A stretch of DNA of 45,162 nucleotides. Origin: Flavobacteriales bacterium (GTDB taxonomy: Bacteria > Bacteroidota > Bacteroidia > UBA10329). The position numbers and the translations under genes are program-made. Positions 35,065 to 44,314 of the stretch are shown in pieces (position 1 is the first letter of the stretch; every line of letters starts with the position of its first letter). Location: assembly GCA_049608805.1 (NCBI GenBank), contig JBMYXX010000001.1:1-45162 (forward strand), given 5' to 3'. The notes under the pieces were generated by a model, which worked only from the letters and a program-made list of their open reading frames with translations, was not told the origin of the DNA and searched no databases.

Positions 35065-37713
35065 TTGAATCGACTTTTACTTTTTCTCGTTTTATCAGTT
35101 TTCAGCATTAACGTTTTTGGCCAGGTAGATCATTGGGAAACCGTGGTTTACGACAGTTCAGAATGGAATTATATTGTTCCAACCGAAGCAGTTCCAACAA
35201 CTTGGGTAGAGCCAACTTTCGATGATTCTTCTTGGGATACAGGTCAAGGTGGTTTTGGCTACGGAGACGGAGACGATAACACTAATGCGGTAGGCAGGTC
35301 GGTGTTTGTTCGGCACACATTTAACATTTCAAACCTCTCAGATATTCAACAGATTTATCTGCATGTTGACCATGATGATGGCTACGCAGCTTATTTAAAT
35401 GGGCACGAAATTGCGAGAGATAACCTCGGAACAATTGGAGTGCCAACGCCTTACGATGAGTTTACGCCAGCCGAGCGAGAAGCAATCATTTATGCGGGCG
35501 GAGCTCCTGCGGCTGTAGAAATTTCGGTTTCAAGTTTGGTTGACGGAAACAACACGCTGGCCATTCAGGTGCATAACAGAACAGCAGGGTCTTCAGACCT
35601 TACTTGCCGTCCGTTTTTAACCATCGGCACCAGTTCTACAGACGTAGTTTATGGCCCAACGCCAACTTGGTTTAACCCGCCAACACCGCTGGTTTCGCAC
35701 TTGCCAATTGTAGTGTTAAACACACTCGGACAGACCATTCCTGATGACCCAAGAATTGTAATTGAGATGGGAATTATTGATAATGGCGAGGGAAATATGA
35801 ACTCAGAAGCTGACCCATTCAATGATTACAATGGACTGATAAATATTGAGCGCAGAGGGTCAAGCTCGCAAAGCTTTCCTAAGAAGCAGTACGCACTAGA
35901 AACTCAAGATTCTGAAGACAATTCCTTAGACGTTTCGTTGTTGGGTTTACCAACAGAAAACGATTGGATTTTGCACGCTCCGTACAGCGATAAAACCCTA
36001 ATGCGCAATTACCTCACTTATAATTGGTGGCGAGACATGGGTTGGTACACCACCAAAACCAAATATTGCGAGGTAATTCTTAACGGTCAATACCAAGGCG
36101 TTTACATTTTAATGGAACAGATAAAATGGGACAACGACCGAGTGGATGTTGAGAAAATGGACATGGACGACAATGTCGGAGATTCTCTAACTGGCGGTTA
36201 TATTTTTAAGGTCGATAAAACCACAGGTAGCGGCCAGTATGATTGGGAGTCTCATGTAGATGAGTTTCAGGGAGCGACAAAATTGACACTTTTTCAGTAC
36301 GATTACCCGAATAGAGATGCCATTACTCACCAGCAAGAAAACTACCTGCAGCAGTTTGTTTACGATTGGGAGCAAGCCCTAATTGAGCCAACTTACACCA
36401 ATGCAGAAACAGGTTACAGAAAGTATGCTGATGTCAATTCTTTCATCGATTTTTTCATCCTGCAAGAGCTCACTAAAAATGTTGATGGTTACCGACTTTC
36501 TACGTACCTCAATAAACAGCGCGATTCGCGTGGTGGCAAGCTTCAGGTAGGTCCAGCATGGGATTTTAACATTGCCCTAGGAAATGCAGATTACTGCGAT
36601 GGCGGAGAAACTGAAGGTTGGGCGCTAGAGTTCGTTTGCGACCCTAAGATTATTCCTTTTTGGTGGGAAAGAATGAATCAGGACCCAGTTTACTGGAACC
36701 AATTGCAATGCCGTTGGGCGGAGTTGCGCTCAGGTCTTTTGAGTTGGGAAAGCATCAACAGCCAGATAGATGAAAACGTAGGTCTTTTAGGAGATGCCAC
36801 AGGCAGGAATTTTGACCAATGGAACATTCTGGGCACACAAATTTGGCCAAACAATTACGTGGGCGGAACGTACACTGCCGAGATATTTTATCTCAAACAA
36901 TGGCTGGGAAACCGGATTGCATGGTTAGATGCAAACATTGGTTCACCAACGTCAGATTGCGCTTCAAGTTATTCTGATGAAATCACCATTTCGGAAATTA
37001 ACTACAACTCGCACGATACCATTGCAACAGACGATTGGTTTGAACTCCAGAACCTAACATCAGAAGCAATTGACCTTTCATTCTGGACGGTTTATGATGG
37101 CAATGAGTTTAACACATATACCTTCCCAATGGGAACTCAGATTCTGCCAGATAGCTTCTTGGTTGTAACAGAAAACGATGCTGATTTTGCCGCAGTAAAT
37201 GCAGCTGTAACCAACCGAATTGGTTCGTTTAATTGGGGAATTGGCAACGGAGGAGATGAAATAACCATCCGAGATTTCAATAATGATTTTGTGGTTTCTG
37301 TAGATTTTGATGACGATGCTCCTTGGCCAACCGCGCCAGATGGCAACAGCCAAACATTAGAAAAATGGGATTGGGCAACCAACCTAAACGACCCCGCAAG
37401 TTGGCACGAAGGCTGCCCAGGTGGTTCGCCCGGAAGAGCGTTTACTTATTGCGTTTATGTTAGTGTAAATGAAGTCGAAACGAGTTCAGTTTCTATTTAT
37501 CCAAATCCGGCAAAAGACATGGTTTGGGTTGCTTTAAGCCAACCGTCAACCGTTTCTGTTTACAGTGTTTCTGGGCAGAAATTGCTTTCTGAAAAACTGC
37601 AAGATGGAAGAAGTCAAATCAATGTTTCAGACCTCTCAGCGGGTCTTTATTTGGTTGAGATTAGTGCCGAAAACAGCAACCAACGTATTACCCAAAAGTT
37701 AATTATTGAATGA
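35065..37713 (+). CDS. CotH kinase-family protein with N-terminal galactose-binding-like domain, lamin-tail domain and T9SS CTD
   Basis: TTG start with signal peptide (M)NRLLLFLVLSVFSINVFGQ. The CotH core is paralogous to the previous gene (NDWILHAPYSDKTLMRNYLTYNWW, NGQYQGVYILMEQIKWDNDRVD, GPAWDFNIALGN). LTD-like segment: ITISEINYNSHDTIATDDWFELQNLTSEAIDLSFWTVYDG. CTD: SIYPNPAKDMVWVAL...GLYLVEI. Confidence 0.8.
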   Translation: MNRLLLFLVLSVFSINVFGQVDHWETVVYDSSEWNYIVPTEAVPTTWVEPTFDDSSWDTGQGGFGYGDGDDNTNAVGRSVFVRHTFNISNLSDIQQIYLHVDHDDGYAAYLNGHEIARDNLGTIGVPTPYDEFTPAEREAIIYAGGAPAAVEISVSSLVDGNNTLAIQVHNRTAGSSDLTCRPFLTIGTSSTDVVYGPTPTWFNPPTPLVSHLPIVVLNTLGQTIPDDPRIVIEMGIIDNGEGNMNSEADPFNDYNGLINIERRGSSSQSFPKKQYALETQDSEDNSLDVSLLGLPTENDWILHAPYSDKTLMRNYLTYNWWRDMGWYTTKTKYCEVILNGQYQGVYILMEQIKWDNDRVDVEKMDMDDNVGDSLTGGYIFKVDKTTGSGQYDWESHVDEFQGATKLTLFQYDYPNRDAITHQQENYLQQFVYDWEQALIEPTYTNAETGYRKYADVNSFIDFFILQELTKNVDGYRLSTYLNKQRDSRGGKLQVGPAWDFNIALGNADYCDGGETEGWALEFVCDPKIIPFWWERMNQDPVYWNQLQCRWAELRSGLLSWESINSQIDENVGLLGDATGRNFDQWNILGTQIWPNNYVGGTYTAEIFYLKQWLGNRIAWLDANIGSPTSDCASSYSDEITISEINYNSHDTIATDDWFELQNLTSEAIDLSFWTVYDGNEFNTYTFPMGTQILPDSFLVVTENDADFAAVNAAVTNRIGSFNWGIGNGGDEITIRDFNNDFVVSVDFDDDAPWPTAPDGNSQTLEKWDWATNLNDPASWHEGCPGGSPGRAFTYCVYVSVNEVETSSVSIYPNPAKDMVWVALSQPSTVSVYSVSGQKLLSEKLQDGRSQINVSDLSAGLYLVEISAENSNQRITQKLIIE

Positions 37714-38741: not shown

Positions 38742-39398
38742 TCAGGGTGACAATTGCTCAATTTTCCAACTACTTCCGTCTTTCGAGTAAACAAACCTGT
38801 CGTGCAAACGGCTTGGGCGACCTTGCCAGAATTCGACACGTGTTGGTTTGACTGAATAGCCACCCCAATGTGGAGGACGCGGAACATCAATACCTTCAAA
38901 CTTGGTTTTAGCAGCATCAAGGTTTTTTTGAAGCTCTTCCTTTCCTGTAATTGACTGGCTTTGTGCCGATGCCCAAGCACCTAATTGGCTTTCGCGTGGG
39001 CGTTTACTCCAGTATAAATCAGACACCTCTTCGGAGGCTTTCACAACTGTGCCTTCAATACGAATCTGCCGTTCTAATTCCGTCCAATGAAAGTTGAGTG
39101 CCGCATTTGGGTTAGCCTCAATCTCCTTGCCTTTGTGGCTATTGTAATTGGTGTAAAACACAAAACCACCAGCCTCTACATCTCGCCAATACACGATGCG
39201 TGATGACGGCTTTCCATCAAGCCCAACAGTAGAAATACACATGGCGTATGGATCTAGAATTTGGGCATTTACCGCTTCTTCCATCCAACTAGCAAATTGC
39301 TCCATTGGATTATCATTTAGCAACTCACGTGTAAGCGGTTTGGCGGCAAAATCTCGCCTAACGCTGTTTATATAATTACGGACTTCTTCTAGGCTCAT
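38742..39398 (-). CDS. pdxH: Pyridoxamine 5'-phosphate oxidase
   Basis: The full length matches the PdxH pattern: RIVYWRDVEAGGFVFYTNYNSHKGKEIEANPNAALNFHWTELERQIRIEG, WSKRPRESQLGAWASAQS, PPHWGGY..P..VEFWQGRPSRLHDR. Confidence 0.95.
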   Translation of the reverse strand: MSLEEVRNYINSVRRDFAAKPLTRELLNDNPMEQFASWMEEAVNAQILDPYAMCISTVGLDGKPSSRIVYWRDVEAGGFVFYTNYNSHKGKEIEANPNAALNFHWTELERQIRIEGTVVKASEEVSDLYWSKRPRESQLGAWASAQSQSITGKEELQKNLDAAKTKFEGIDVPRPPHWGGYSVKPTRVEFWQGRPSRLHDRFVYSKDGSSWKIEQLSP

Positions 39399-39411
39399 TT
39401 CAAGTCTTTAG

Positions 39412-40464
39412 TTAAGGAGCAAATAACAAATTGTTCAGGGTTTGATTTCGAAGTAACCTTTCCTTTCTGTTGTTTACACCTTCCTTAGCTGCGAGCGCAT
39501 ATGCCTCAGGAATATTTTCTTCAAAAGCAGTCAGCTTTCGTTTGACTTCTTCTTTTCCAATAAGCGATAATCTATCAATATTGTTATAGAAGAGCACTAC
39601 CAAAGTAAAAAAATTGGCCTTGTTATACCAGTAACTGGTCTTTTTGAGCCTGAGACTTAGATAGAAAAGAGCTACCTCTTCTAAACCGTCAACGATGTCA
39701 TCCTTATTTTCAACCTCTTCAGAATATTCATCCAATAGATTATCCTTAATGTTTCGATTGAAAATACCACGTTCAACGGTCGCAATGATGTTTAGAACGA
39801 ACATCAGATGAACCATTCTTGAGATTTCATAATTGGTGAAGATTGGTTGCTCAAGAATAAGCTCTCTAAAAGAATCGCAGTCTATTTCCTTAGCCCAAGT
39901 CTTAAATTCTGGTGGTATGTTGGGGTTACGTTTTTTCGATTCCTCCGAATCAAAGTCGACAATTCCAGATAGCAGTTTAGCCAAAAGCATAAGTTCAGAC
40001 GCTGCATATTCGGTAGCAAGTTTTTCAATCTTTGTTAAACTGTAAAAAGTTCTATTAAGTCTTTGGAATATTTCAACTATATCAGGGTTGTCACTTTCCA
40101 TATCAAGCTCAATCAATGCAATCTCATATTTCAAGAAGTCTTCCCTTTCCTCTTTTGACAAATCCTTGTAGTGTTTCCCGTCAACCTTGAATTCATTACT
40201 TATATATTCCACAATAGAGTTCATTCGTTGTTGACCATCAACGACAACTGAGGTTGTTGTAAGTTCATCTGGGTTAAGTTCCCCTTTTGCTAGGAAAATT
40301 TGAGGGAACGGGTATCCTAGCAATATCGTTTTAATAAAGTCTATTTTGTGTATTGTTCGCCAGACAAGGTTCCGCTGAAAGTGGGGGGAAATAATCAGTT
40401 TTTCTCTTCTTATTTCTCCAATTAAATCTACCAATTGCCTAGAACGAATGTTGTATTTTATCAT
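39412..40464 (-). CDS. DUF262 (ParB/GmrS-like NTP-binding) domain protein without recognisable nuclease partner domain
   Basis: The N-terminus carries FQRNLVW, VVDGQQR (nt 40225-40239) and IFQRLN. The C-terminal ~200 aa are helical, with no H-N-H/DUF1524-type motif seen. The start overlaps the upstream stop by 4 nt. Confidence 0.7.
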   Translation of the reverse strand: MIKYNIRSRQLVDLIGEIRREKLIISPHFQRNLVWRTIHKIDFIKTILLGYPFPQIFLAKGELNPDELTTTSVVVDGQQRMNSIVEYISNEFKVDGKHYKDLSKEEREDFLKYEIALIELDMESDNPDIVEIFQRLNRTFYSLTKIEKLATEYAASELMLLAKLLSGIVDFDSEESKKRNPNIPPEFKTWAKEIDCDSFRELILEQPIFTNYEISRMVHLMFVLNIIATVERGIFNRNIKDNLLDEYSEEVENKDDIVDGLEEVALFYLSLRLKKTSYWYNKANFFTLVVLFYNNIDRLSLIGKEEVKRKLTAFEENIPEAYALAAKEGVNNRKERLLRNQTLNNLLFAP

Positions 40465-41072
40465 TTTAAATCCTTGTAAAGTTCAATGTTGTTTGACTGT
40501 TTAAACTCGAAGTAGAACGAACTCAAGTAAATTCCGGCATTGATCGATTTAAACAATTCGAAATGTGGTTCTGAAAGTTTATTGAAGAAGTTGAACCACT
40601 TCTTCTTAGCGTTTCCTGAGGGCATAAGGTCGGGACGAAAAATTCCTTTGGACAAATACTTTCTGTAAATAGGAAAATGTTCATCCCCATCCTTAGTTCT
40701 TCCGAAACTTGCAAGGTTGCTGAACCCCCTTGTTTCTCTGAAAACCATTTCCGTATAGTTGATGAACAAGTCTTTGTCCACTATCGCAATATCTAAATCC
40801 GATTCTCCTTCAATAAACCCCCTGTTTTTATAATAACTGTATCCAGTTTTAGCTGAACCTGCTACTTGAACAGCGGTAATTGGAACGTTGAAAAAGCTTG
40901 CAATTTTGTTTTGAATATCAAACTGAATTTCTGGCTTTCCATCAAAAACTTTGGTCGGAAAAGACAGGTATATTTTTCTTGCTACAATTTCATTTCTGAA
41001 TCCGTCAGCCAGTCCTTTGTCAATTCCTTCGTTGTACATCTTGTTTTCCGGGAGCCAAGTTAGCCAATTCAA
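40461..41072 (-). CDS. Small pol-beta-superfamily nucleotidyltransferase-like protein
   Basis: The signature hG[GS]...[DE]h[DE]h is present as VAGSAKTG-x15-SDLDIAIV (nt 40791-40859). The track start is TTG 41072. An in-frame ATG at 41039 (MYNEGIDKG...) is an alternative. Confidence 0.55.
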   Translation of the reverse strand: MNWLTWLPENKMYNEGIDKGLADGFRNEIVARKIYLSFPTKVFDGKPEIQFDIQNKIASFFNVPITAVQVAGSAKTGYSYYKNRGFIEGESDLDIAIVDKDLFINYTEMVFRETRGFSNLASFGRTKDGDEHFPIYRKYLSKGIFRPDLMPSGNAKKKWFNFFNKLSEPHFELFKSINAGIYLSSFYFEFKQSNNIELYKDLK

Positions 41073-41097
41073 TATTCCATAGGTTTGAAACTTTCAA

Positions 41098-42433: not shown

Positions 42434-44314
42434 ATGACAAAACAATTTCTCTGTCTGGCAGGCTTTCTTGCTTTGCCGTTTTTAACCTTCGCTCAAGTTA
42501 ATCCAGTACAATTAGGAAGGGCATCAAATGCCTTTAGTGCTATTAGAAACAATCAAAACCAAGTGGTTGCGCATAGTGCAAGTCAAACTGTGGCGTTTAT
42601 ACACCGACAAGATGTTACTATCTGGGGTGGAGGTTCTGCCGAAAGCGGTAAGTTAAGAGTAGACATGTCTACAGATGGCGGAACTACTTTTTCAAACGAT
42701 CAAGGACCGTTAAATCAGGTTTATTTGCAAACGAGCAGGTACCCGCAAATTGTTATTCACGGAGACGATTCTAATCCGTTCGCGAATGAAAAGGTATGGG
42801 CCGCACCTACATATGGCGGCAGCACTTGGTCCGGAATAGCTAACGGGGTATCTGACTCACCAAGTTCATCTACTGAGAATTATTCGTTTCAAGGCGTGGG
42901 CACTTATCTACCAGGTGGTCTTTGCCAAGGCTTACCGGGCGAGTATTGGATGGCTGATAGAGATTATAATGGTTTGGCACTTGAAGATACGGTGCGCGTG
43001 TTAAAAGGAACTTACAACTCTAATACTGCTGATGTTGACTGGGATGTTCACAAAGAGATTGAATTGCCAACCTCTCTTTCTTACGATGGTTTTTCTCGTG
43101 TTTTAGACCCAAATATGGCCTTCTCGCCAGATGGTCAAACGGGCTGGGTAGCAATGTTGGGAGATTTAGTTGGAGGGTCAGACTCAACGTATAATCCGAT
43201 ACTCATTAAAAGTACAGATGCCGGAGCTACTTGGGAAAACCCAATTGAGGTCGATTTAAGAACAGCTACGTTTACAAGTGGAGGAACACTTGCTGAAGAA
43301 TTACAGGAGCTATGGATAGATGCAAACCTAAACCCGGCCTCAACCGGCAGGCCAACTTGTTCGTTTGAGTTTGATATTGTTGTTGACGCTACTGGTGCAC
43401 CACATCTATTTACCATTGTGGGCTCGGCTGCGACTACCATAAGCCCCGTGCAAGCATATAGCTATAATAGCGGGCTCGCAAAGCTTGCTGTTGATATAAC
43501 AACAGTAGATGGCGGACAAACTTGGAGCCTGCACAAAGTTTCTCCAGTCTATACGTTTAGAGGTCAGTTTGGAACTCCCGATAATGATGATGGTAGTTTA
43601 ATGTCAATGGATAATTACCCACAAGTTTCAAGAAGTTCAGATGGCTCCCACATATTCTATAGCTGGGTTGACAGCGATACTGCTGAATTCACAGGAGCGC
43701 AATTGGGAGTCGGTTTTGGAGAGGTAGATAATTTGGCACCCAACCTTCGAATTGCTGGAAAAAGAATATCTGATGGGTACGTAAGTTGTCCTAAATGGAT
43801 AACACAAGGTGATTTGATTTGGGATGGGAAAGCCCTTTGGCCAACGATGGCTCCTGAGGTTCTTGTTGATTATAGCGGGGCTGAGGCGCTATACAAATTG
43901 CCTATTGTCGCTACAGAGATGATAACAAATGTCCAGTCAGAACCTTGTCTATTTTGGTATTTTGGAAATGATGCCACAATTACCGAATCAGACTTTTGGG
44001 GAGAAGCTGAATGGGTCAATACAGATGATTGCTTTAGCAACCCAACTGTTTCTGTCAGCAATAACGAAGGGCAGGAGGAATTGGCTCTTTACCCTGTTCC
44101 CGCTTCCGATGCTGTCCAGTTAAAAGGTTTGAACTCAACTACGCAGTACACTCTAGAATTGGTCAATCAGCTTGGCCAAATTGTTTGGACCGAATCAGTC
44201 CATGACCAAAATCAGGGTAGGGTCGATGTTGCAAAATTCCAAAACGGATATTATAACCTGAGAGTAATCTCAGATACTGGAATGCAGATTAAGCGATTAG
44301 TGATAAGTAAATAG
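42434..44314 (+). CDS. T9SS-secreted BNR/Asp-box beta-propeller protein
   Basis: Signal peptide MTKQFLCLAGFLALPFLTFAQ. Four Asp-box-like motifs: STDGGTTFS, STDAGATWEN, TVDGGQTWS and SSDGSHIFYSW. CTD: LALYPVPASDAVQLKGL...GYYNLRVIS. No FRIP sialidase motif was seen. Confidence 0.7.
   Translation: MTKQFLCLAGFLALPFLTFAQVNPVQLGRASNAFSAIRNNQNQVVAHSASQTVAFIHRQDVTIWGGGSAESGKLRVDMSTDGGTTFSNDQGPLNQVYLQTSRYPQIVIHGDDSNPFANEKVWAAPTYGGSTWSGIANGVSDSPSSSTENYSFQGVGTYLPGGLCQGLPGEYWMADRDYNGLALEDTVRVLKGTYNSNTADVDWDVHKEIELPTSLSYDGFSRVLDPNMAFSPDGQTGWVAMLGDLVGGSDSTYNPILIKSTDAGATWENPIEVDLRTATFTSGGTLAEELQELWIDANLNPASTGRPTCSFEFDIVVDATGAPHLFTIVGSAATTISPVQAYSYNSGLAKLAVDITTVDGGQTWSLHKVSPVYTFRGQFGTPDNDDGSLMSMDNYPQVSRSSDGSHIFYSWVDSDTAEFTGAQLGVGFGEVDNLAPNLRIAGKRISDGYVSCPKWITQGDLIWDGKALWPTMAPEVLVDYSGAEALYKLPIVATEMITNVQSEPCLFWYFGNDATITESDFWGEAEWVNTDDCFSNPTVSVSNNEGQEELALYPVPASDAVQLKGLNSTTQYTLELVNQLGQIVWTESVHDQNQGRVDVAKFQNGYYNLRVISDTGMQIKRLVISK

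What the first reader, a model, noticed from the sequence alone, without database searches (positions are those of the whole stretch)
39412..41072. Overlapping nucleotidyltransferase + DUF262 gene pair in a low-GC pocket: candidate uncharacterised defence or toxin-antitoxin-like module
Seen in the sequence:
- Two minus-strand ORFs overlap by 4 nt (ATGA at 40461-40464), which implies translational coupling.
- The upstream 203-aa ORF carries the pol-beta NTase signature VAGSAKTG...GESDLDIAIV.
- The downstream 350-aa ORF has the DUF262 hallmarks FQRNLVW, VVDGQQR and IFQRLN. Its C-terminal ~200 aa are helical and show no DUF1524/His-Me nuclease motif.
- My hand GC counts on single 60-nt lines give about 33-38% inside the pair, against about 42% in the GT gene and about 55% in pdxH.
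- The pair is wedged 13 bp upstream of the pdxH start and 25-58 bp from the divergent glycosyltransferase start.

Established knowledge: DUF262 is a ParB-like NTP-binding module known from GmrSD type IV restriction, SspE and BrxU, where it is fused to a nuclease. Small pol-beta NTases act as MNT/AbiEii-type toxin-antitoxin components or as SMODS/CD-NTase signal synthases.

Inference: an NTase paired with a nuclease-less DUF262 protein is not a named system that I recognise. The NTase could modify or signal to the ParB-like NTPase, or the reverse.
Basis: partly seen in the sequence, partly recalled or inferred. Interest (0 to 1): 0.75.

Follow-up and report, generated by a model that had tools for sequence, protein, structure and literature searches.

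The report
Unnamed DUF262 two-gene defence-like cassette
Two overlapping genes, a ParB-like DNA-sensing NTPase and an orphan protein carrying only the motif of a nucleotidyltransferase, form a conserved mobile cassette found across many bacterial phyla in a spot where relatives keep restriction enzymes and toxins, so it is probably an undescribed anti-phage or toxin-antitoxin-like system.

Summary
Two minus-strand genes overlap by ATGA: A at 40461-41039 (192 aa, start ATG 41039 rather than TTG 41072) and B at 39412-40464 (350 aa).

- **B** is a nuclease-less DUF262 protein. It matches PADLOC's Menshen NsnA model over its full length, but the Menshen partners NsnB and NsnC are absent.
- **A** has no Pfam or NCBIfam family and no significant structural neighbour. 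Its only universally conserved residues are the GS...SDxD signature. Pol-beta nucleotidyltransferase (NTase) families recur as sub-threshold hits, but profile-profile and fold tests are not significant, so "NTase" remains a motif-level call.
- **The pair is one unit.** B follows A in 39 of 42 genome loci across many phyla. Stop and start overlap in 29 of 36 loci. The two proteins co-evolve (r = 0.80). No third gene is conserved.
- **It is an insertion.** The closest relatives have an empty pdxH-GT site, and other relatives carry Mrr, Fic or PIN genes there. One copy sits between CI and integrase in a prophage.
- **It is unnamed.** I found no named system with this composition.

Verdict: a credible new DUF262-based defence or toxin-antitoxin-like cassette. 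Its mechanism is unresolved.

The parts
40461..41039 (-). Gene A: a 192-aa orphan protein with a Pol-beta-NTase-like GS...SDxD signature. The mechanical ORF extends to TTG 41072.
   Evidence: ORF. Homologues and the NCBI model start at ATG 41039. The family has 616 representatives at 50% identity. AF2 model pLDDT 96.7. No Pfam or NCBIfam hit.
40791..40859 (-). Codons G61-D83 of A: GSAKTGYSYYKNRGFIEGESDLD, the only segment conserved across the whole family.
   Evidence: G61, S62, G66, S68, S80, D81 and D83 are 96-100% conserved in 150 diverse representatives. All weak NTase-family hits map to this segment.
40461..40464 (-). ATGA stop/start overlap between A and B (translational coupling).
   Evidence: Sequence. 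Overlap is conserved: 29 of 36 loci overlap, and the largest gap is 8 nt.
39412..40464 (-). Gene B: a 350-aa NsnA-like protein (ParB-DUF262 plus a helical C-terminal ParBDB-type domain) with no nuclease domain.
   Evidence: Pfam GmrSD_N 5e-21. PADLOC NsnA 4.2e-22 over residues 2-345. Foldseek top hit is BrxU, followed by ParB-N, Noc, KorB and sulfiredoxin (Srx).
40009..40428 (-). DUF262 (ParB/Srx-fold NTPase) domain of B, residues 13-152, with intact QR (Q30 R31), DGQQR (76-80; nt 40225-40239) and FxxxN (F133...N137) motifs.
   Evidence: for the domain. Invariant columns in 47 homologues. Motif definitions from PMC12137116.
39415..40008 (-). All-helical C-terminal domain of B (residues 153-350), equivalent to NsnA-C/ParBDB. 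It has many invariant polar residues: E213, R216, R237, K254, N281, K282, N284, E328, N331, R336, R339.
   Evidence: Full-length NsnA HMM alignment. DSSP of the model. Invariant columns. Domain concept from PMC12065111.
39399..41097 (.). The interval between the pdxH start and the GT start that holds the cassette. It is 65-68 bp long in the closest relatives (empty site).
   Evidence: No target-site duplication or terminal repeats were found.

Best explanation
**What it is.** A self-contained, horizontally mobile two-gene cassette of the DUF262 defence class, so far unnamed.

**Shown**
- A and B are always adjacent, co-oriented and translationally coupled, and they co-evolve.
- No third gene is conserved.
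- The cassette occupies a chromosomal hotspot that in relatives is either empty or holds Mrr, Fic or PIN genes.
- B has the ParB-DUF262 NTPase motifs plus the NsnA-type helical DNA-binding domain, and it has no nuclease.

**Inferred mechanism**
1. As in GmrSD, BrxU, SspE, Dazbog and Menshen, B is the sensor and NTP-driven switch. It binds DNA, probably modified or foreign DNA.
2. A forms a complex with B and is the only other candidate catalytic component.
3. When B is triggered, A uses its GS...DxD metal and nucleotide site to transfer a nucleotide onto a macromolecule, most plausibly tRNA/RNA or DNA ends. This arrests infection in the manner of AbiEii/MenT.

**Not established.** The direction of control (B licenses A, or A modifies B) and the NTase chemistry itself are both unproven.
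For: **Synteny**
- 39 of 42 genome loci from Bacteroidota, Gamma- and Betaproteobacteria, Desulfobacterota, Bacillota, Acidobacteriota and Ignavibacteriota have B directly after A.
- The reverse check holds in 3 of 3 B homologues.
- No third conserved family was found.
- Junctions overlap in 29 of 36 loci. Mirror-tree r = 0.80, Mantel 0/2000.

**Protein B**
- GmrSD_N 5e-21, and NsnA 4e-22 over the full length.
- QR, DGQQR and FxxxN motifs are invariant.
- BrxU and ParB are the best fold matches.

**Protein A**
- GS...SDxD is 96-100% conserved over 150 diverse representatives.
- The three most recurrent weak Pfam hits are MdcG (10 members), Polbeta (7) and NTP_transf_2 (6).
- The only PDB sequence hit is the MNT protein HI0073.
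- PADLOC's CBASS cyclase model hits the same segment.

**Genomic context**
- The site is empty in L061 and L060. The same site carries Mrr, Fic, PIN or T5orf172 cargo in L049-L059.
- In L132 the pair lies between CI and integrase in a P2/186-like prophage.
- Recurrent neighbours are C5-MTase/Vsr/MvaI-BcnI, HNH_2, integrases, PIN and MNT-HEPN.
Against: - There are no experimental data.
- A is not demonstrably an NTase.
  - The window protein has no family hit.
  - Foldseek E >= 0.9 against the PDB, with TM <= 0.26 to NTases, despite pLDDT 96.7.
  - hhalign against a verified MNT family aligns only 19-22 columns, at 7-10% probability.
  - The putative third carboxylate, D137, is only 58% conserved family-wide.
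- A is upstream of B, which is the antitoxin position in MNT-HEPN and AbiE-type modules.
- A has no homologue in 72,556 plasmids or 50,697 phage records, and only one in 2.9 million viral contigs. That is unusual for a defence system.
- Many loci are flanked only by housekeeping genes.
- GC3 is not foreign.
Confidence: 0.45

Rival explanations
1. Type VII toxin-antitoxin-like logic. A is an MNT-like enzyme that covalently nucleotidylates B, as MntA does to HepT or as MdcG/CitX modify a protein serine. This holds B inactive. B is then the effector, for example through runaway (d)NTP hydrolysis or DNA clamping, once A's activity lapses during infection.
For: - The gene order (NTase first) and the 4-nt overlap mirror MNT-HEPN modules.
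- A's weak hits are to protein-modifying or minimal NTases: MdcG, Polbeta, and HI0073/MNT.
- B is slightly more conserved than A (mean distance 0.475 against 0.541).
- No nuclease or other effector is ever linked.
Against: - B has no recognised toxic domain, and it aligns full-length to NsnA, which is proposed to be a sensor (PMC12065111).
- Homology of A to MNT is not significant.
- I did not identify an acceptor residue.
Confidence: 0.2
2. The pair is only the sensor half of a system whose nuclease acts in trans or is optional. That would make it a split GmrS/GmrD-like type IV restriction system, in which A is an adaptor or regulator rather than an enzyme and a separate His-Me (HNH_2) or other nuclease does the cutting.
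For: - Homologous ~260-aa HNH_2 endonucleases lie within 1-3 genes of the pair in five independent loci: L004, L007, L039, L047/48 and L134.
- Every characterised DUF262 system has a nuclease or RNase effector (PMC10952713, PMC12065111).
- A's enzymatic nature is unproven.
Against: - HNH_2 is absent from about 90% of loci, including this window, and it occurs on either strand.
- The near-absolute conservation of GS...SDxD in A argues for a catalytic or ligand-binding site rather than a passive adaptor.
Confidence: 0.12
3. Not an immune system. On this reading the pair is a DndB-like or ParB-like regulatory or DNA-metabolism pair, for example a transcriptional or epigenetic regulator with a small accessory enzyme, that merely hitch-hikes in variable regions.
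For: - Many loci sit next to housekeeping genes such as PolA, GyrB, a tRNA synthetase and glycoside hydrolases.
- The pair is absent from plasmids and phages.
- GC3 is host-like.
- DndB, a relative of the DUF262/ParBDB architecture, is a regulator (PMC12065111).
Against: - The distribution is patchy and rare: 42 of 185,579 species genomes, spread across unrelated phyla.
- Empty sites exist in close relatives, and the alternative cargo at the same site is Mrr, Fic or PIN.
- One copy occupies the lysogeny-operon position in a prophage.
- R-M, HNH, TA and integrase genes are enriched nearby.
Confidence: 0.1

Closest known systems
Menshen (NsnABC), component NsnA
   Same: B has the same two-domain architecture, ParB-DUF262 plus the helical ParBDB domain. 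It aligns over residues 2-345 to the PADLOC NsnA model (4.2e-22).
   Different: There is no NsnB ABC-ATPase and no NsnC inPIN-nuclease, either here or in any of about 40 related loci. The constant partner is instead an upstream 192-aa orphan protein.
Dazbog (DzbAB)
   Same: Both are two-gene systems with one nuclease-less DUF262 protein and one small partner of unknown function. [quoted passage not shown] The pair here is recurrently next to C5-methylase and Vsr genes.
   Different: In Dazbog the DUF262 gene comes first, whereas here it comes second. Neither A nor B hits the PADLOC Dzb models at E<=1, while B hits NsnA strongly.
GmrSD / BrxU / SspE type IV restriction enzymes
   Same: The DUF262 NTPase fold has intact QR, DGQQR and FxxxN motifs, and BrxU is the best structural match (probability 1.0). 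At the same chromosomal site, relatives carry a different type IV enzyme, Mrr.
   Different: There is no DUF1524 His-Me nuclease. There is no sequence-level match to any solved GmrSD-family structure. The system is two proteins rather than one chain.
MNT-HEPN (MntA-HepT) type VII toxin-antitoxin modules
   Same: A small protein carrying the GS...DxD signature is encoded first and overlaps its partner gene by 4 nt. The only PDB sequence hit of the A profile is the MNT protein HI0073.
   Different: The partner is a DUF262 protein, not a HEPN RNase. A is about twice the size of an MNT, with 17 residues rather than about 9 between GS and SDxD. Profile-profile similarity is not significant.
PD-T4-2
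   Same: It is a DUF262-containing system without DUF1524. B hits PD-T4-2_A at 2.6e-13.
   Different: That hit covers only residues 8-91, the core DUF262 region. A does not hit PD-T4-2_B.

Membership tests
Menshen (NsnABC) | NsnA-type protein: ParB-DUF262 plus the ParBDB C-terminal domain | tested here: met
   PADLOC NsnA 4.2e-22, residues 2-345 against profile positions 44-377 of 385. Pfam GmrSD_N 5e-21.
Menshen (NsnABC) | Adjacent NsnB ABC-ATPase (AAA_15 + DUF3696) | tested here: not met
   The neighbours are pdxH and a glycosyltransferase. No third conserved gene family was found in 40 loci. No ABC-ATPase appears among the recurrent neighbour families.
Menshen (NsnABC) | NsnC effector (inPIN plus a nuclease) downstream | tested here: not met
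   Same evidence as for NsnB. The gene downstream of B here is pdxH, 13 nt away.
GmrSD-family type IV restriction (GmrSD/BrxU/SspE) | N-terminal DUF262 with QR, DGQQR and FxxxN NTPase motifs | tested here: met
   Q30 R31, D76-R80, and F133...N137 are invariant in 47 homologues. BrxU is the top fold hit.
GmrSD-family type IV restriction (GmrSD/BrxU/SspE) | C-terminal DUF1524 His-Me finger nuclease | tested here: not met
   Pfam at E<=1 reports only GmrSD_N. The C-terminal half is all-helical.
Dazbog (DzbAB) | Matches to the DzbA and DzbB family models | tested here: not met
   No Dzb model appears among the PADLOC hits at E<=1 for either protein.
Dazbog (DzbAB) | Gene order: DUF262 gene first, partner second | tested here: not met
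   Here, and in 39 related loci, the DUF262 gene is second. Dazbog's order is given in bioRxiv 10.1101/2022.08.27.505566.
Pol-beta superfamily nucleotidyltransferase (MNT / NTP_transf_2 / Polbeta clan) | hG[GS] ... [DE]h[DE]h signature on a strand-helix / strand pair | tested here: met
   VAGS(61-62) sits at a strand-to-helix junction and SDLDIAIV (80-87) lies on the next long strand of the AF2 model. These residues are 96-100% conserved in 150 representatives.
Pol-beta superfamily nucleotidyltransferase (MNT / NTP_transf_2 / Polbeta clan) | Family-model match above the curated threshold | tested here: not met
   The window protein has no Pfam or NCBIfam hit. The best score in the whole family is MdcG at 24.3 bits, against a cut-off of 26.5. 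Sub-threshold hits do recur: MdcG 10, Polbeta 7 and NTP_transf_2 6 of 150 members.
Pol-beta superfamily nucleotidyltransferase (MNT / NTP_transf_2 / Polbeta clan) | Structural similarity to solved NTase folds | tested here: inconclusive
   Foldseek against the PDB finds no match with E<=0.001. NTases (TUT7, Pol lambda and mu, DncV, GLD-2, GrpB, Pla1) appear in the weak tail at E 1-4 with TM <= 0.26. BFVD gives nothing significant.
Pol-beta superfamily nucleotidyltransferase (MNT / NTP_transf_2 / Polbeta clan) | Profile-profile homology to a verified minimal NTase family | tested here: inconclusive
   hhalign of A4 and A1 against MNT alignment A6 (verified by PDB 1wot at 2e-6 and by Pfam Polbeta + NTP_transf_2) aligns 19-22 columns at the SDLD strand, with probability 7-10% and P = 0.003-0.005.
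Pol-beta superfamily nucleotidyltransferase (MNT / NTP_transf_2 / Polbeta clan) | Third catalytic carboxylate on a following strand | tested here: inconclusive
   D137 (RPDLMP) is nearly invariant among close homologues but only 58% conserved among diverse representatives.
CBASS (CD-NTase + effector) | CD-NTase/SMODS cyclase with a linked effector (Cap) gene | tested here: not met
   The PADLOC Cyclase hit is only 12 bits (E = 0.018) over 39 residues. No effector gene is conserved next to the pair.
MNT-HEPN type VII TA | HEPN RNase toxin partner | tested here: not met
   The partner is DUF262/ParBDB. B has no HEPN hit in Pfam or PADLOC.
AbiE (AbiEi/AbiEii) | AbiEii (DUF1814) NTase toxin and AbiEi antitoxin models | tested here: not met
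   Neither protein gives an AbiE hit in Pfam or PADLOC at E<=1.

The most novel reading that the evidence does not exclude
A nuclease-free immune or exclusion mechanism. An orphan-fold enzyme (A) with a convergent or extremely divergent GS...DxD nucleotide-transfer site either makes a nucleotide ligand for, or covalently nucleotidylates, a ParB-type NTP-switch protein (B). B then clamps onto and silences modified or foreign DNA, like the ParB and KorB sliding clamps, instead of cutting it. That would be a new effector logic for DUF262 systems and a new NTase-like fold family.
Probability: 0.1. Interest if true: 0.85.

Novelty: new variant of a known kind. Interest (0 to 1): 0.58.

Why it matters
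- DUF262 proteins are recurring sensors of modified DNA in bacterial immunity, but how the nuclease-less ones (Menshen, Dazbog, PD-T4-2) deliver an effect is unknown.
- This cassette is the most minimal version so far: an NsnA-like sensor plus one 192-aa partner, conserved at about 50% identity from Bacteroidota to Proteobacteria and Bacillota. That makes it a tractable model for what a DUF262 NTP switch does without a nuclease.
- Protein A is a large family (616 representatives at 50% identity) with no Pfam model and no structural neighbour in the libraries available here. It carries a strictly conserved candidate active site that is easy to mutate.
- The pdxH-GT hotspot, with Mrr, Fic or PIN as alternative cargo, is a clean natural example of cassette swapping in marine Flavobacteriales.

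Tried and rejected
**Classifications rejected**
- Menshen: NsnB and NsnC are absent.
- GmrSD: no DUF1524 domain.
- Dazbog and PD-T4-2: the gene order is opposite, or there are no model hits.
- CBASS and AbiE: no real hits and no linked effector.
- WonAB, GrwAB, HEC-05 and HEC-06: read and excluded on domain content.

**Attempts to prove A is an NTase**
- Pfam and NCBIfam on the window protein: no hits.
- Per-member Pfam tallies on 56 and on 150 members: sub-threshold hits only.
- PDB profile searches: only HI0073, at E = 1.1.
- Foldseek against the PDB and BFVD: nothing significant.
- hhalign against a verified MNT alignment: a local match of about 20 columns.

**Mobility and carriage**
- No target-site duplication or terminal inverted repeats at the insertion.
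- No tRNA genes in the window.
- No A homologue in the plasmid or phage collections.

**Other dead ends**
- The long A-domain proteins (about 345 aa) have a C-terminal extension with no Pfam match and no DUF262 neighbour.
- The look-up of encoding contigs failed for two NCBI-only proteins.
- No supplementary files are held for the Menshen paper.
- The sigma-70 promoter scan is at background level and is not informative for Bacteroidota.
Full report
**1. Observation**

The window appears to be a 45-kb contig of a Flavobacteriales MAG: the identical proteins are recorded on a contig of exactly this length and named that way.
- Two minus-strand ORFs lie at 40461..41072 and 39412..40464 and share an ATGA stop/start at 40461-40464.
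- Homologues of the upstream protein, and the NCBI model, begin at MYNEG... The true start is therefore ATG 41039, giving 192 aa rather than 203. I call this protein A and the 350-aa protein B.
- The pair is 36.4% GC against 42.5% for the window, and it is the lowest-GC stretch of its length in the window.
- pdxH is 45.5% GC, not about 55%.
- GC3 of A (0.394) and B (0.356) lies within the host range (0.394 +/- 0.033). The GC dip is therefore driven by amino-acid composition and is weak evidence for recent transfer.

**2. Protein B**

- Pfam finds GmrSD_N/DUF262 on residues 13-152 (5e-21) and nothing else at E<=1.
- PADLOC aligns B end to end with NsnA, the first component of the Menshen system: 4.2e-22, residues 2-345 against profile positions 44-377 of 385.
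- According to PMC12065111, NsnA is a ParB-DUF262 NTPase plus a helical 'ParBDB' DNA-binding domain that is also present in GmrSD, SspE and DndB.
- The QR, DGQQR and FxxxN motifs are invariant in 47 homologues, as are many polar residues of the C-terminal domain.
- The AF2 model (pLDDT 83) best matches BrxU (probability 1.0), followed by ParB-N, Noc, KorB and sulfiredoxin.
- No solved structure matches at the sequence level.
- B is therefore an NsnA-like, nuclease-less DUF262 protein.

**3. Protein A**

*Family and structure*
- The window protein has no Pfam or NCBIfam hit.
- The family is large: 294 clusters at 90% identity, and 616 representatives at 50% identity in an exhaustive search.
- Nearly all members are stand-alone proteins of 190-200 aa.
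- The AF2 model is very confident (pLDDT 96.7), yet Foldseek finds nothing significant in the PDB or BFVD.
- Pol-beta-type NTases populate the weak tail of the PDB search (TUT7, Pol lambda and mu, DncV, GLD-2, GrpB, Pla1), but with TM <= 0.26.

*Conservation*
- Across 150 diverse representatives, the only positions conserved at 96-100% are G61, S62, G66, S68, S80, D81 and D83.
- In the model, GS sits at a strand-to-helix junction and SDLDIAIV lies on the next long strand. That is the classic NTase arrangement.

*Weak sequence similarity*
- A per-member Pfam tally gives MdcG (10 members), Polbeta (7) and NTP_transf_2 (6) as the three most recurrent weak hits. All three are NTase-fold families.
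- The best of these hits is 24.3 bits, against a cut-off of 26.5.
- The only PDB sequence hit of the family profile is the MNT protein HI0073, at E = 1.1.

*Formal homology test*
- I built an alignment of a verified MNT family (PDB 1wot at 2e-6; Pfam Polbeta + NTP_transf_2).
- hhalign aligned only 19-22 columns, in register at the SDLD strand, with probability 7-10%.
- The candidate third carboxylate, D137, is only 58% conserved family-wide.

*Conclusion*
A carries an NTase-like signature, but its membership of the superfamily is not established. I estimate about two chances in three that it is a highly divergent Pol-beta-type NTase.

**4. The pair is one unit**

- A scan of one genome per species (185,579 species) found 42 loci.
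- These come from Bacteroidota, Ignavibacteriota, Gamma- and Betaproteobacteria, Desulfobacterota, Bacillota and Acidobacteriota, plus a short contig binned as Heimdallarchaeota.
- In 39 of the 42 loci, B follows A directly on the same strand. The exceptions are a contig end, a truncated A, and a decayed copy.
- All three B homologues that I checked in the reverse direction have an overlapping ORF of about 200 aa, without any Pfam domain, directly upstream.
- Stop and start overlap in 29 of 36 loci (-4 in 16 loci, -1 in 11). The largest gap is 8 nt.
- The A and B distance matrices correlate at r = 0.80 (Mantel 0/2000).
- Clustering of all neighbouring ORFs found no third conserved family. The system is therefore not Menshen, which requires NsnB and NsnC.

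**5. It is an insertion in a defence/TA hotspot**

- I searched metagenomes with the flanking glycosyltransferase.
- In the closest relatives, L061 (GT 90% and pdxH 84% identical) and L060, pdxH and GT are divergent neighbours only 65-68 bp apart.
- Other relatives carry different low-GC cargo at exactly this site (L054 and L059 by protein-sequence similarity to scanned neighbours):

| Cargo | Loci |
|---|---|
| Mrr type IV restriction enzyme | L049, L052, L054 |
| Fic/DOC | L049, L055 |
| PIN toxin | L057, L058, L059 |
| T5orf172/MUG113 | L058 |

- There are no target-site duplications or terminal repeats.
- The stop codon of B lies 13 nt from the pdxH start, so the cassette has displaced the native upstream region of pdxH.

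**6. Wider context**

- Neighbours in other genomes are heterogeneous. The pair is often wedged beside core genes such as PolA, GyrB and a tRNA synthetase.
- Some neighbours recur: C5-cytosine methylases in six loci by ORF clustering, five confirmed by Pfam (P about 1e-7 to 1e-9 against background), together with Vsr and an MvaI/BcnI enzyme; homologous HNH_2 endonucleases in five loci; integrases; PIN modules; and an MNT-HEPN-like pair.
- A has no homologue in 72,556 plasmids or 50,697 phage records.
- Only one of 2.9 million viral contigs carries the pair. There it lies between the CI repressor and the integrase of a P2/186-like prophage, co-oriented with both. That is the lysogeny-expressed position typical of prophage defence cargo.

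**7. Mechanism**

*Shown:* the anatomy, linkage, mobility and context described above.

*Inferred:*
- By analogy with every characterised DUF262 protein (PMC10952713, PMC12065111, PMC12137116), B is an NTP-driven sensor of DNA, probably modified DNA.
- A is the only other component, and it has a strictly conserved candidate metal and nucleotide site.
- My preferred reading (about 0.45) is that B senses and A executes a nucleotide transfer that arrests infection.

*Rivals:*
- A type VII-TA-like arrangement in which A nucleotidylates B (0.2). The gene order and A's weak affinities to MNT and MdcG favour this reading. B's lack of a toxic domain counts against it.
- A sensor pair that works with a nuclease in trans, such as the recurrent HNH_2 (0.12).
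- A non-immune regulatory role (0.1).

**8. Novelty**

- Neither PADLOC v2 nor the literature I could search names a system with this composition. I searched on DUF262, NTase, Dazbog, PD-T4-2, the Pfam accession and ParBDB.
- Newer DefenseFinder or PADLOC releases and AlphaFold DB could not be queried.
- I rate the pair as a new variant of a known kind: a DUF262-based defence module with a new, orphan partner.
- It is of moderate-to-good interest. It is minimal, widespread across phyla, and directly testable.

Noticed in passing
window 39399-41097; L049, L052, L054, L055, L057-L061: The pdxH-GT intergenic gap is a cargo-swapping hotspot in this Flavobacteriales lineage. It is empty (65-68 bp) in L060 and L061. 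It holds Mrr in L049, L052 and L054, Fic in L049 and L055, PIN in L057-L059, and T5orf172/MUG113 in L058. All of this cargo is lower in GC than its flanks.
   Followed up: yes
L004:338-1111, L007:12030-12809, L039:2246-3022, L047:3253-4047, L134:5248-6021: HNH_2 (His-Me finger) endonucleases of about 260 aa, three of them mutually homologous by BLAST clustering, lie within 1-3 genes of the A-B pair in five independent loci from different phyla, on either strand. They could be an optional nuclease partner or simply co-travelling island genes.
   Followed up: partly
L004, L018, L019, L028, L029, L040 (within 2 genes of the pair): C5-cytosine DNA methylases flank the pair far more often than expected. 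Vsr accompanies them in L019, L028 and L040, and an MvaI/BcnI enzyme in L019. In L018 and L040 the methylase is co-oriented and 9-22 nt from the pair. This is notable because Dazbog, another two-gene DUF262 system, is triggered by phage C5 methylation.
   Followed up: partly
L132:1371-5662: The single viral-collection hit places the pair between a CI repressor and an integrase of a P2/186-like prophage. It is co-oriented with both, and a CII/CP76 regulator is divergent upstream.
   Followed up: partly
P0343, P0363, P0380, P0383, P0386; L129:4051-5073: A minority of A-domain proteins are about 340-348 aa long. Four of the five share a conserved C-terminal extension of about 150 aa with no Pfam match, and the one whose flanks could be read (P0343) has no DUF262 gene next to it. 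The A domain can therefore work with a different module.
   Followed up: partly
window 38742-39414: The pdxH start is only 13 nt downstream of the B stop codon, with no terminator-like site between them. After the insertion, pdxH is probably read through from the cassette or from a promoter inside the 3' end of B.
   Followed up: no
L037:8503-9193: A textbook minimal NTase (MNT; PDB 1wot at 2e-6) followed by a HEPN-like ORF sits about 1 kb upstream of the A-B pair in a Sulfuricella MAG. This is another toxin-antitoxin neighbour.
   Followed up: partly
L010 (2.6-kb contig), L041:9965-10417, L042:6789-7529: L010 carries an intact pair but is a very short contig binned as Heimdallarchaeota, so it may be a binning contaminant. 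L041 has a truncated A (150 aa) followed by FecR and no B. L042 (Photorhabdus cinerea) has only fragments of both genes, so it is a decayed copy.
   Followed up: no
window 35065-37713 and 42434-44314: The large flanking ORFs (882 and 626 aa) end in sequences that look like type IX secretion C-terminal sorting domains. This fits a Bacteroidota host and is unrelated to the finding.
   Followed up: no
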